A stretch of 64,000 nucleotides of DNA from Macrostomum lignano (taxonomy: Eukaryota). The translations under genes and the position numbers were made by a program. The DNA is taken from the NCBI GenBank assembly GCA_002269645.1, contig NIVC01001234.1, positions 160,872-224,871 of the forward strand, read 5' to 3'. Each line of letters begins with the position of its first letter. The first letter of the stretch is position 1. The notes under the pieces are model-generated. The model made no database searches. It saw only the letters and a program-made list of their open reading frames with translations, and was not told the DNA's origin. Positions 38,443 to 42,100 of this stretch are shown one piece after another.

Positions 38443-39171
38443 TTAGATGTCGTGTACAGGCCGAAGATTATTAGTGTTTTGCGCCGATGCATACAATAAG
38501 CCGTTGACCGGGATCATTTGGCGCTCCGGGTCGAATTTTCCCGCCAAGAACTCTAGTTGCTCCATGGTGACGCTCATACTGAAGGGGCCGCGTGCGTTAC
38601 TTTCCGCATACTGGAGGCAATAGGTACAGGCTATTTCGTAGCACTTAATTGCCTCCTCCTTGGTCGCTGTCGTTAAGAAACGCGCGCAGGCTTCGGGTAA
38701 TTCGGTTTCGAACATACCGGTCTTACCCGTCCTTAGTATGTACTTCTTGAGGGCCCGGCGGCAGCGTCTAAACTTCCTCTTTTGCTCCTCTGGGTCTACT
38801 TGCGGCTCGGCTGGCTCCTCTGCTGGTTGCTGTCGCTCTTCTTCTTCCTCTAATCCGTCTTCCTGCTGGCTTCCTTCCTCATACTGTCGCACCTCTTCCA
38901 TGAATCTGGTCATTTCCTCTCGGAACGCTTCTTCCTCTCTTTCCGTCTCCCTTTCCAACTCTTCCAAGTCTATGTCCACGACCAGTTTTCCTTCGGGCTC
39001 ACCGCTCTCTTCCGGTTGCTCTAATTTCCGCTTTTTACCGCTTGTCGCGACACTATCGCTTACTTCTTGAACAGCCCTAATTCTTGGGGGTTCATTTTCT
39101 GAAGCTGCCTGTTTTCCTTGTTGGCCATAGATTCGCTTTTTTGGATAGACGCGGATTGGGGCGTCGGCCAT
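38443..39171 (-). CDS. Gypsy accessory ORF3, 242 aa, acidic, with NLS-like motifs, unknown function
   Basis: Open ATG-to-stop ORF starting 2 nt after the pol stop; PKKR, KKRK, KRKFRRCRR; no signal peptide or TM segment. Confidence 0.75.
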   Translation of the reverse strand: MADAPIRVYPKKRIYGQQGKQAASENEPPRIRAVQEVSDSVATSGKKRKLEQPEESGEPEGKLVVDIDLEELERETEREEEAFREEMTRFMEEVRQYEEGSQQEDGLEEEEERQQPAEEPAEPQVDPEEQKRKFRRCRRALKKYILRTGKTGMFETELPEACARFLTTATKEEAIKCYEIACTYCLQYAESNARGPFSMSVTMEQLEFLAGKFDPERQMIPVNGLLYASAQNTNNLRPVHDI

Positions 39172-39173
39172 AG

Positions 39174-42100
39174 TTAATTAGTTTTAGGCTGTAAGAGGTT
39201 AAATGGGTTAAACAACTCCGCTATCCTCTGCACATAACTTTTCTGGTTTGGCCTGACTGTTAATCTATCTGGAGCATGACGCTCTCTAGCTGGCCTAGCT
39301 TCTAAATTAATCCCTAAATTATTATTGTTATTATTTAATTGTACCGGCATAACTCCTTGTACACCTACTAAATTATTTTGATTATTATTTTGATGCTGCA
39401 CTTGTTGATTTGGCACTGACTGCACATTATTTTGATTTTGCACTGGCATAAACTGCTCATTATTTTGATTTTGCACTGGCATAAACTGCTCATTATTTTG
39501 ATGTTGCACTGGCATAAACTGCACTGCGTCCTCGTACTCATCGTCGCTTTCTGAGTCATTGTACACATTCGGCTGGCTATTGGCTAACTGTTCCCTATTG
39601 TATTGTTTCCTCTGCTCTTTTGGCTTAGTACTAGCTTCTTCTTCCTGATAATCTGCTTGCGGTACTTTCTTTAAATTATCCCTATGCATAATAAGTTCTT
39701 CCTTTCTAGCCTTCTTATTTTTGGTAACTGGTCTAATCTTAAAGACTACTTCCGATAATTGTTCTACAATTTCTTAAACTGCCCTTTGTTTTCTGTGAAA
39801 TTTGTTAGCCTCTGTGTTAGCAATTACTGGATTATTGATAAATACTAAGCTTCCTACAGGCAATGTTTTCGGCTTAGGCTTGTTAGAGTACTCCTGCTCA
39901 CGGTTTTGTTGCACTAATTTTAATCTCTTTCTCGCTAGTTCTTGGCCTTCCTGCAGATTCTGCTGATGTTCCTGGACATAAGATGGCAGGTCCTGAAACT
40001 GCTTTGGCTCGTTCAGCTCATTGTCACAGGGCATTCTGGCCTCTCGTCCAAAGACTAAATAGTGCGGACTAAATCCTGTGGCAGTGTGCGTGCTGGTTCT
40101 CAGAGCTGTTATGCAACCTGGCAACAGAACGTCCCAGTTGGAATGCTCCTTCTCCAGTAAACAGGTGAGAATTGATTTAATCTGCTTATTAAGGTTTTCT
40201 ACTAAGCCATTGCTCTGCGGATGATAACTAGTTGTTCGAGTGTGTCTAATGCCATAGAGGTCTAAAAATTTCTTAAAGGCCCTACCAGTGAACTGTGTTC
40301 CCTGGTCTGTGTGAATCCATTGTGGAATCCCAAAATCAGCGAAAACTCGTTCTTGTAGAATTTTGATAACTGTTTTAGCCTTCTGATTCCTAATTGCGAA
40401 TGCGAATGGAAATTTGCTAGTGCTGTCTATGACTGAAAGTACATATTTGTTTCCTGATTTGCTGTTTGGCCAATAGGTCCTATTAGATCTATGTGCAATC
40501 TACCGAACGGTTCGACTACAGGATAGTTCTGAATTGGTGCCTAATTCTTCTTCTAGTTTGCTTTCTAGGCATGATTTACATTTGGCTACGTAGCGTTCAA
40601 CTGCTGTTGCTAATCCTGGCCTCCAAAATCGAATTTTAATTCTCTGATAAGTTTTATCTCGACCTAGGTGTCCCGCTAACGGTGAATCATGGAATTGGTG
40701 AAAGACTTCACTATCCAGAGACTTGGGCAACACTACCTTTGGATCAGTCTGCCCCATAGATAAGTCTACTTTGAGTACGCCGTCCTCAATTCTGAGCAAC
40801 TCATAGTAACCTAAGAGGTTCCTACAGTCGTGGGTTAACTCTAGTCGTTCTTGAAATGTCGGTTTAGGCGAGTCATTTTCGATTAAATTTCTAACAAAGC
40901 CTACCGCCGGATCGGCTAGCTGTGCTGCGATCAATTGGTCACGGCGAACTGGGCTACGGAGATAGTCACTGAGCAGGGCATTGCATGCAGGCGGATTTCC
41001 GGTTTTAGGCTCCTGTCCCTGTCTATTGTCTAGCCTACTGCTACTAAAGATCGGAGTATTGTGTCGGTTCGTGACAGTGTCTTGTGACGAACAGCATGAC
41101 GGAACTCCACTGCTCGAGCTACAGGTTTCAGCGAACGCGGAATTGCCTGAGCTGACAGTAAAAGCTGATGCTGGGTCTGTATTCACAGTTGCCCTACAGC
41201 TTAGCGACCTGGCATGTGGGGACATCTCTTCCGGTTGAGGATCAGGGATCCTGGATAGAGCGTCAGCATTCACATGTTTAGGGCCACTCCTATGTTCTAT
41301 CTCAAAATCAAATTCGGAAAGTCTTTCGATCCAACGACCTAAAATGCCTGTCTGTTCGGTTTGGCGAAGCAACCAGGTTAGGGCATTGTGATCAGTGCGC
41401 ACCTTAAAATGTTTTCCTACGAGGTAAAATCTAAAGTACTTCAGCGAGTCAACAATCGCTAGAAGCTCCTTCCTCGTAATTGGATATCTAGTTTCTGACT
41501 GCCTCATCTTCCGACTATAATACGCGATCGGTCTTTCTATGCCGTCGCTCTGAACTTGATTCAAGACCGCCCCAATTCTGACATCTGATGCATCAGTGTC
41601 TAACACAAAATAAACTTGGGGGTCTGTATTGAACTCTGGGTAAGCAAGCACTTCTTCGGAACACATCCGTTCCTTCAACAGTTCGAAGCATTCATCATGA
41701 ATCCTGGTCCATTTGTCCTGGATACACTTGATGTTCTTCTTGGTCAACTCACAGAGTGGTGCTGCTACCTCGGCAAAATCTCTAACGAATTTTCTATAGT
41801 AATTACAGAGTCCGAGAAAACTTCGAAGCTCTGTCACAGATTTAGGTTTCGGCCAGTTCCTAATTGCTTCTAATTTTGACGCATCTCTCTTAATTCCTGT
41901 TTTGCCTATGACGTGTCCTAGATATTGTAATACTGATTTGAAAAGGTGACATTTCTTAGCCTTTAGTTTCATGTTAGCTTGTATTAGTCTCTTGAGCACT
42001 TCTTTCAGGTGTTCTAAATGCGATTCAAAGTCTGCACTATAAACTATTACATCGTCTAAGTAAGCTATATGGCGAACTTCTGTGCAATGTCCTTAAGAAC

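What the first reader, a model, noticed from the sequence alone, without database searches (positions are those of the whole stretch)
38443..39190. Gypsy element encodes an extra non-env nuclear-type protein (ORF3) behind a strong splice acceptor
Seen: a 242-aa intact ORF follows pol (TAA CT ATG) while pol itself is broken here; a strong acceptor TTTAACCTCTTACAG| lies 17 nt before its ATG (39190/39189), and GTAAGG donor candidates lie in the leader (45115-45120, 44911-44916, 44887-44892). The protein has PKKR/KKRK/KRKFRRCRR basic clusters, a long Glu-rich helix and a C-terminal domain with CYEIACTYC; no signal peptide or TM, so it is not Env. I recognise no family. Inference: an accessory factor made from subgenomic RNA, for example an anti-silencing, chromatin or transactivator protein acting on the element's own LTR. 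Best candidate here for an undescribed system.
Basis: partly seen in the sequence, partly recalled or inferred. Interest (0 to 1): 0.72.

Follow-up and report, generated by a model that had tools for sequence, protein, structure and literature searches.

The report
Swappable extra gene in flatworm retrotransposons
A group of jumping genes in this animal genome, probably a flatworm's, carries an extra, long-conserved gene with no known relative, kept in many very different versions on nearly identical elements, and it likely helps the element cope with the host's nuclear defences.

Summary
Confirmed and extended. The 242-aa ORF (38443-39171, minus) is the third gene of a young Ty3/Gypsy element (LTRs 99.6% identical). 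It follows the pol tail in 62 of 62 strong pol-tail matches, is under purifying selection (dN/dS about 0.05-0.3 between diverged alleles) and has no signal peptide or TM. AlphaFold predicts a five-helix C-terminal bundle (pLDDT 92) with no significant sequence or structure match; a histone-fold lead failed. New: nine or more deep ORF3 alleles (31-84% identical, synonymous sites mostly saturated) travel with their 3' UTR on backbones about 98% identical within each of two subfamilies; five alleles occur in young insertions. Four more Gypsy families (RT/RNase H about 60% identical) carry a probably homologous domain in the same slot, two of them in frame with Pol. A YTNCAG acceptor precedes the start in 51/55 and 57/58 copies, in one family behind the pol stop. 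It fits the spliced-leader trans-splice motif as well as cis-splicing. No splice was seen in RNA, and the leader donors are unverified. Best guess: nuclear adaptor against host silencing (0.4). No earlier scan note covers this protein; notes describe a different (J-domain) ORF3 in this genome.

The parts
45187..45749 (-). 5' LTR (TG...CA), 563 nt
   Evidence: 99.6% identical to the 3' LTR, 1 mismatch and 1 gap; CTAT target-site duplication on both flanks
45175..45184 (-). PBS-like site just inside the 5' LTR
   Evidence: sequence; shared by other copies; its tRNA was not tested
44887..45120 (-). Leader with three GTAAGG candidate donors (45120, 44916, 44892); use unproven
   Evidence: near-identical copies share them, so the sharing is uninformative
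43690..44733 (-). gag (Retrotrans_gag, zf-CCHC)
39174..43870 (-). pol (PR-RT-RNase H-IN), interrupted in this copy
   Evidence: Pfam RVT_1, RT_RNaseH, Integrase_H2C2
39177..39296 (-). Conserved pol-tail peptide that marks the ORF3 slot in five Gypsy families
39189..39212 (-). Predicted 3' splice acceptor (branch-like TTTAAC, pyrimidine tract, TTACAG); cis or SL-trans use untested
   Evidence: motif from PMC8629364
38443..39171 (-). ORF3, 242 aa, allele 'a1'
39019..39171 (-). ORF3 basic N-terminus (res 1-51) with NLS-like clusters; swapped on its own between alleles
   Evidence: N-terminal mosaics
38965..38985 (-). SIM-like hydrophobic motif followed by acidic residues (res 63-69); label recalled
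   Evidence: column conserved across alleles; a loose regex matched 23 of 27 long family-A ORFs
38488..38793 (-). ORF3 C-terminal five-helix bundle (predicted helices 127-151, 160-168, 171-192, 199-213, 222-228)
   Evidence: AF2 pLDDT 91.9, pTM 0.84; no significant fold match
35821..38442 (-). 3' UTR (about 520-570 nt in uninterrupted copies, allele-specific) ending in the polypurine tract; split here by a LINE
35929..38032 (-). Nested 5'-truncated non-LTR retrotransposon (RT) with a 9-bp target-site duplication; not part of the system
   Evidence: Pfam RVT_1 E 3.7e-28; flanks read
35259..35820 (-). 3' LTR

Best explanation
ORF3 is an old, selected accessory gene of a Ty3/Gypsy lineage, kept as many deep alleles on near-identical gag-pol backbones, and it likely encodes a nuclear adaptor that binds host silencing or RNA-surveillance proteins so that the element's RNA is made and survives. 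Shown: the gene, its fixed place behind pol, purifying selection, the conserved acceptor, and exchange of ORF3 plus 3' UTR between elements. Predicted: a disordered N-terminus with NLS-like and SUMO-binding-like motifs joined to a five-helix protein-interaction bundle without catalytic residues. Inferred: the acceptor at 39189 releases a capped ORF3 mRNA from the element's transcript, by SL trans-splicing (about even odds) or cis-splicing. The protein would enter the nucleus and engage a host partner, and deep alleles would persist because they meet different or changing host partners; template switching at conserved stretches would reshuffle them.
For: Gene and selection: 139 matches in G000. 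62 of 62 pol-tail matches at E<1e-4 have an ORF3 match just downstream (my comparison; 150 of 178 candidates were scored). C-domain dN/dS is 0.05-0.18 in 8 of the 10 pairs with measurable dS (0.00 and 0.48 in the other two; the 0.48 rests on 5 differences); in the other 12 of 22 pairs pS is 0.75-1.0 against pN 0.10-0.43. Swapping: elements 93-100% identical over pol are 50-66% identical over ORF3. RNase H-IN identity is 98.1% within and 97.8% between alleles; allele labels need 11 changes on the tree against 12.7 shuffled; AU rejects an a1 clade at p=0.018. Alleles a1, a3, a4, b2 and b3 each occur in insertions with LTRs >=99.3% identical. Family F repeats the pattern. Acceptor: 51 of 55 family-A starts against 3.8% background; 57 of 58 in families B, C, E and F against 0.13 chance, at a different codon phase from family A, and after the pol stop in 8 of 8 family-E copies. 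Protein: confident helical model; no invariant column across five families, which argues against an enzyme; basic or Arg-rich N-termini and SIM-like motifs recur. Precedent for a spliced nuclear accessory protein of a Gypsy element: Cer1 CERV.
Against: No call shows function, localisation or a partner. No spliced read was seen. NLS- and SIM-like motifs are short and recalled; family B lacks both by regex (0 of 7). dN/dS shows purifying, not positive, selection, so an arms race is inferred only from the number and depth of alleles. Mosaicism is not confined to ORF3: subfamilies a and b share RT at 94-95% but IN at about 77% and gag at about 79%. Allele clades were not all rejected (a3 p=0.17; overall label clustering as low in 22 of 200 shuffles). 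Homology of the window's domain to families B, C, E and F is weak by sequence: hhalign E 0.0025 with C and 0.042 with E, none with B or F; 0.016 with the pooled set, and a profile built without family A does not recover it (E>=0.32).
Confidence: 0.4

Rival explanations
1. Rev/CERV-like factor: ORF3 protein binds the element's unspliced genomic RNA, blocks use of the acceptor and licenses nuclear export.
For: An element with a strong acceptor must export unspliced RNA. CERV of Cer1 does this and comes from a spliced mRNA, found with and without SL1 (PMC10309623 section 9; PMC3315495 passages). N-termini are Arg-rich in families B, C, E and F. Family C carries an RRRSRWD stretch that fits a U2AF-ligand-like motif (label recalled; 2 of 2 full ORFs; also L111, L113 and L125).
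Against: The motif is absent from A, B, E and F (0 of 27, 7, 4 and 8). The allele-linked 3' UTR is less structured than shuffles (z +0.6 to +1.8 in 4 of 4), so no response element is seen there. Alleles 39% identical would have to read the same RNA.
Confidence: 0.25
2. Integration or nuclear-import tether: the helical domain links integrase or the particle to chromatin, in cis where it is fused to Pol and in trans where it is split off.
For: In families B and F the domain is in frame with Pol (natural frames of 1798-2215 aa), where chromodomains sit in chromoviruses (established knowledge). Copies are clustered and co-oriented: 34 of 36 neighbour pairs within 50 kb share a strand.
Against: Even fused families keep an acceptor and a Met 7 nt behind it (16 of 17 B copies; 18 of 20 F copies), which points to a separate product. 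Families A, C and E have a stop before ORF3. The clusters may be host small-RNA traps.
Confidence: 0.15
3. Useful but interchangeable module: ORF3 has one general helper role, and the allele diversity is a neutral relic of old sister lineages onto which one gag-pol swept by recombination.
For: Purifying selection only; mosaic gag/RT/IN between subfamilies. The presumed host is described as an allotetraploid (PMC12801592 part 1), which could merge lineages.
Against: Gag, RT and IN show one or two types while ORF3 shows nine or more. Five alleles are in young insertions at once, and family F shows the same asymmetry.
Confidence: 0.12
4. Histone-fold mimic that pairs with a host histone-fold protein.
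For: All named ESM Atlas feature hits for res 115-242 were histone-fold families (TAF11, TAF13, CENP-S, NF-YB), scores 0.80-0.83.
Against: Scores under 0.9 are leads only, and the family-C domain gave no usable hit. Both models break the would-be long helix and close into a compact bundle.
Confidence: 0.04

Closest known systems
CERV of C. elegans Cer1 (PMC10309623: abstract and section 9 read; PMC3315495: passages)
   Same: Non-env accessory protein of a Ty3/Gypsy element, with no homologue outside its lineage, a basic NLS candidate and an mRNA made by splicing, which in Cer1 can carry SL1
   Different: CERV is 517 aa, shares exons with gag and has H, M and G domains. This ORF3 is one exon behind pol with a single helical bundle, occurs as swapped alleles, and its splicing and function are unproven
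Non-env ORF3s of bdelloid LTR retrotransposons (GDSL, DEDDy, TM, coiled coil; PMC5408684, passages)
   Same: Same slot behind pol, family-specific, modular
   Different: Those are recognisable enzymes or TM proteins. This one matches no Pfam family or solved fold, and many deep alleles coexist within one family
VANC anti-silencing proteins and the Athila domain of plant elements (PMC13547354, passages)
   Same: Lineage-specific accessory proteins with many predicted host contacts; VANC counters silencing
   Different: VANC belongs to DNA transposons and is sequence-specific for its own element (titles cited in that paper). Here alleles a1-a4 share one U3 type; no homology was found, and no direct comparison was made
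Errantivirus env and Drosophila sORF2 fusogens (PMC13524379 passages; PMC11952523 search listing)
   Same: Position behind pol and an acceptor in front of the start
   Different: No signal peptide, TM segment or glycoprotein fold
J-domain ORF3 of other Gypsy families in this genome (earlier scan notes, unchecked)
   Same: Same slot, predicted acceptor, splice not seen in RNA
   Different: Unrelated protein; no DnaJ match here

Membership tests
Ty3/Gypsy LTR retrotransposon | LTRs with TG...CA, short TSD, PBS and PPT; gag, then RT-RNase H-integrase order | tested here: met
Ty3/Gypsy named clade (Mag, CsRN1, Gmr1/Osvaldo, Mdg3) | RT phylogeny with reference elements | not testable with these tools
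   no reference set at hand; one search compared own-genome families only
Env / errantivirus ORF3 | Signal peptide and transmembrane anchor | tested here: not met
   max 19-residue hydropathy 0.35 here and 0.65 over 27 long family-A ORFs
Env / errantivirus ORF3 | Expression from a spliced subgenomic RNA | tested here: inconclusive
   acceptor conserved; no joint listed in contigs of 4 runs
Histone fold | Short-long-short helices with one continuous central helix of about 29 residues | tested here: not met
   monomer models give a 9-residue and a 22-residue helix, and 7 and 18 residues, in compact bundles; no partner was modelled
Histone fold | Structural match to solved histone folds | tested here: inconclusive
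   best Z 6.4-6.5, all within noise
Rev/CERV-like export factor | Nuclear protein needed for export of unspliced genomic RNA | not testable with these tools
   needs knock-down and RNA localisation
Rev/CERV-like export factor | Structured RNA response element linked to the gene | tested here: inconclusive
   3' UTRs of 4 alleles are unstructured; other regions were not tested
Rev/CERV-like export factor | Sequence homology to CERV | not tested
   no CERV sequence was fetched
VANC-like sequence-specific anti-silencing factor | Allele co-varies with its target motif in the element | tested here: inconclusive
   a1-a4 share U3 while a5 and b differ; target motifs elsewhere were not sought
Chromovirus-type targeting domain | Chromodomain at the integrase C-terminus | tested here: not met
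   no Pfam match; all-helical model
Bdelloid enzymatic ORF3 (GDSL, DEDDy) or J-domain ORF3 | Pfam domain and catalytic or HPD motif | tested here: not met
   no invariant column across five families
SL trans-spliced flatworm gene | [T/C]TNCAG acceptor | tested here: met
   51 of 55 and 57 of 58; motif from PMC8629364; ordinary cis acceptors can also match it
SL trans-spliced flatworm gene | SL sequence joined at the acceptor in RNA | tested here: inconclusive
   no loose end at 39188 among the 24 rows shown; 131 rows not shown

The most novel reading that the evidence does not exclude
A whole Gypsy lineage treats its genome like a host operon: it uses spliced-leader trans-splicing to release a nuclear counter-defence protein with an undescribed helical domain, and keeps that gene as a panel of ancient, balanced alleles that are swapped onto one shared gag-pol backbone, much as pathogens keep effector alleles.
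Probability: 0.2. Interest if true: 0.85.

Novelty: new variant of a known kind. Interest (0 to 1): 0.64.

Why it matters
Counter-defence or export proteins of animal LTR retrotransposons are barely known; CERV is the clear case that I read. This is an undescribed, well-folded domain held by selection in one family and probably across five, in an animal with transgenesis tools if the host guess is right. Coexisting deep alleles on one backbone give a natural experiment: if alleles bind different host proteins, they would name the host silencing factors that the elements must beat. The conserved acceptor makes a yes/no test of whether a retrotransposon expresses a downstream gene by SL trans-splicing.

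Tried and rejected
Homologue searches outside G000 found nothing. The search for homologous proteins with A2 (longer), A3 (longer) and A1 (near) gave no hit; these are word-limited, so the blank is weak evidence. The 1.84-billion representative search gave 7 hits at E<=0.001, all multi-stretch sums in long or repeat proteins (4 WD40, 1 DUF7507/DUF11, 1 zf-BED, 1 unassigned), rejected as spurious. PDB sequence best E was 0.066 and 0.33; Pfam had none under 0.04; viral and metagenome contigs had none. Fold searches: no Foldseek hit at E<=0.001; VIA best Z 6.5 (Cul3 repeat, rmsd 5.0, 109 aligned) and 6.4 (FAM86A, rmsd 3.4, 88 aligned), within the tool's noise range. No histone-fold or BEN entry was among the listed rows, which does not exclude them. 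RNA: no holder on record as RNA. Four runs laid as contigs showed no joint or loose end at the acceptor among the rows shown; the one GT..AG joint (40160-43659) reads on the opposite strand to the element. A second, narrower laying gave no result, so the splice question is open. No complex prediction was obtained, so oligomer state is open. No spliced, re-integrated copy was seen: among 55 ORF3 starts, 54 keep the intron-side sequence and one (L087) has a rearranged upstream. A zinc site in CYEIACTYC was rejected. A BEN-like ORF behind pol in L121/L126 (Pfam E 0.011, below cut-off) looks like a one-off insertion into a family-F element and was not used as evidence. Literature: eight searches listed no paper on this ORF. 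PMC12801592 has no 'ORF', 'splic' or 'envelope' in its main text; its supplements, and the earlier classification paper that it cites, were not seen and could mention the ORF.
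Full report
What is there. The ORF is as described: 242 aa at 38443-39171 on the minus strand, two bases behind the pol stop, with TTTAACCTCTTACAG ending at 39189, 17 nt before the ATG. It lies in a complete Ty3/Gypsy element: LTRs at 45749-45187 and 35820-35259, 99.6% identical, a CTAT duplication, gag, a broken pol, and a LINE nested in the 3' UTR. I take the host to be the flatworm Macrostomum lignano. That is my guess from recall; earlier scan notes also say flatworm, and no call of mine establishes it.

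It is a real gene. G000 holds 139 matches, which I grouped into 79 loci besides the window's own and fetched. 54 of the 79 show gag, RT or RNase H on the stretch; the rest are truncated copies (my count). All 62 pol-tail matches at E<1e-4 have ORF3 right behind them (150 of 178 candidates scored; the assembly is redundant, so copies are not all independent). Of 22 hand-picked pairs, 10 have measurable C-domain dS: dN/dS is 0.05-0.18 in eight, 0.00 in one and 0.48 in one near-identical pair. In the other 12, synonymous sites are saturated while pN is 0.10-0.43. No Pfam family, PDB sequence, database protein or contig collection gave a credible relative.

The protein. Residues 1-51 are basic, 52-129 acidic (33 D/E), and nothing is hydrophobic enough for a signal or TM segment. 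A hydrophobic-then-acidic motif at 63-69 is kept in all alleles; I read it as SUMO-interacting-like from recall. AlphaFold on 22 own-genome sequences gives residues 125-242 a five-helix bundle (pLDDT 91.9, pTM 0.84; five models 50-92). The ESM Atlas suggested histone folds at 0.80-0.83, but the model breaks the long helix. Foldseek and VIA found nothing above noise (best Z 6.5). The CYEIACTYC cysteines are not conserved as a set.

The unexpected part: alleles. Elements 93-100% identical to the window copy across pol are only 50-66% identical across ORF3. Subfamily a (integrase core >=95% identical in 27 loci) carries five C-domain alleles and subfamily b four; allele pairs are 31-84% identical. 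RNase H-integrase identity is 98.1% within and 97.8% between a alleles. Allele labels are scattered on that tree (11 changes against 12.7 shuffled, as low in 22 of 200; an a1 clade rejected at p=0.018, an a3 clade not, p=0.17; L104 dropped for length, L033, L051, L055 and L103 left out). Breakpoints also fall inside ORF3: the window copy and L032 differ almost only in the N-terminus, and L046 joins L041's N-terminus to L045's C-domain. The 3' UTR follows the C-domain allele in 13 of 13 copies examined and is unstructured (b-type UTRs could not be delimited). Alleles a1, a3, a4, b2 and b3 each occur in insertions with LTRs >=99.3% identical; 27 of 40 loci had an LTR pair on the stretch. Full-length a1-a4 copies share U3 at 86-99%, which argues against allele-matched LTR transactivation. 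Against over-reading: gag, RT and IN are also mosaic between a and b, and no positive selection was shown.

Wider family. Weak pol-tail matches led to four more Gypsy families (B, C, E, F; RT/RNase H about 60% identical). They share the pol-tail peptide and carry a helical domain in the same slot. B, C, E and F are linked by profile comparison (B-C E 6e-6, B-F 3e-5, C-E 6.5e-4, E-F 1e-3, C-F 3e-3; B-E no better than control). The window's family is the outlier: E 0.0025 to C (score 23 against a shuffle maximum of 17), 0.042 to E, no match to B or F, and a profile without family A does not recover it. The five align almost without gaps. Homology is probable, not secure. In B and F the domain is in frame with Pol. 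Domain families match RT families at depth (7 changes against 14.2 shuffled), and family F again shows near-identical RNase H with domains 27-81% identical to the query.

Expression. A YTNCAG hexamer lies 5-25 nt before 51 of 55 family-A starts (background 3.8%) and at the matching place in 57 of 58 copies of B, C, E and F that retain the pol tail (chance 0.13; 42 of the 100 loci lacked the tail motif). It ends on a Gln codon in A, in another phase in B, C and F, and behind the pol stop in all 8 E copies, so pol coding does not explain it. PMC8629364 (passages) reports [T/C]TNCAG as the top motif at M. lignano SL trans-splice acceptors and 30% of genes as trans-spliced. Family-B leaders show no GTRAG donor, though GTRAG covers only about two-thirds of donors in that paper. 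Cer1's accessory mRNA occurs with and without SL1 (PMC3315495 passages). Neither was seen: four runs, contigs only, tables cut. Reinitiation after the adjacent stop remains possible in family A.

Mechanism. No invariant residue across families, a compact helical bundle and a motif-laden disordered arm point to an adaptor, not an enzyme or Env. Very different alleles work with the same LTR and backbone, so the partner is more likely a host protein than the element's own nucleic acid. I put a nuclear counter-silencing adaptor at 0.4, a CERV/Rev-like export factor at 0.25, an integration tether at 0.15, neutral modular diversity at 0.12 and a histone mimic at 0.04. All functional steps are inference.

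Comparison and verdict. Non-env ORF3s are known (PMC5408684 passages; CERV, PMC10309623 abstract and section 9; plant accessory proteins, PMC13547354 passages; PMC13524379 passages cover env carriers only; PMC12801592 first part and passages; 10.1101/2022.08.27.505549 passages added nothing). Eight searches listed nothing on this ORF, on its alleles or on SL use by a flatworm retrotransposon; supplements were not seen. It is a new variant of a known kind: an undescribed domain, an unusual allele structure and a testable expression route, so far confined to one genome and without functional data. Interest 0.64.

Noticed in passing
G000, e.g. C38:1.03-1.10 Mb (all +), C947:185-209 kb (all -), C255:505-607 kb (all +): Copies of the five families are clustered and co-oriented: 34 of 36 neighbour pairs within 50 kb share a strand (about 3 pairs expected if uniform), 21 of 22 for pairs of different families. 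This resembles unistrand piRNA clusters or oriented nested targeting; redundant contigs and nested fragments inflate the count.
   Followed up: partly
L131, L132, L111, L113, L125 (family C ORF3 N-terminus): An RRRSRWD stretch that fits a U2AF-ligand (ULM)-like motif (label recalled), which could tie this family to splicing factors.
   Followed up: partly
family B, C and F ORF3 linkers: TQ/CQT-type stretches that resemble LC8 dynein light-chain motifs, and IDLT-type SIM-like motifs in family F (labels recalled).
   Followed up: no
L126:6656-7360 + (also L121): BEN-like ORF (Pfam E 0.011, below cut-off) behind the pol tail of a family-F element; probably a one-off insertion.
   Followed up: partly
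window 38785-38830 region of ORF3: The window's allele a1 is about 30-40 aa shorter than other alleles and lacks a short hydrophobic linker motif kept in a2-a4 and b1-b4, yet it is the commonest a allele.
   Followed up: no
window 45290-45300 and 35361-35370 (-): A second PBS-like TGGTGGCAGC lies inside each LTR, about 110 nt before the LTR end; family-B LTR regions show several PBS-like sites too.
   Followed up: no
window 35929-38032 (-): Young-looking GC-rich LINE fragment with a (GTT)n tail and a 9-bp TSD inserted in the element's 3' UTR.
   Followed up: partly
window 49568-51628: 463-nt inverted repeats, 98% complementary, 1135 nt apart; probably a non-autonomous DNA transposon.
   Followed up: no
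window 8087-9772 (+): Fragments of a second, distant Gypsy-like element (gag zinc knuckle and RT/RNase H-like frames) with host-like ORFs on the opposite strand.
   Followed up: no
subfamily a versus b: RT is shared at 94-95% while gag (about 79%) and integrase (about 77%) differ, so RT itself was exchanged between lineages.
   Followed up: partly
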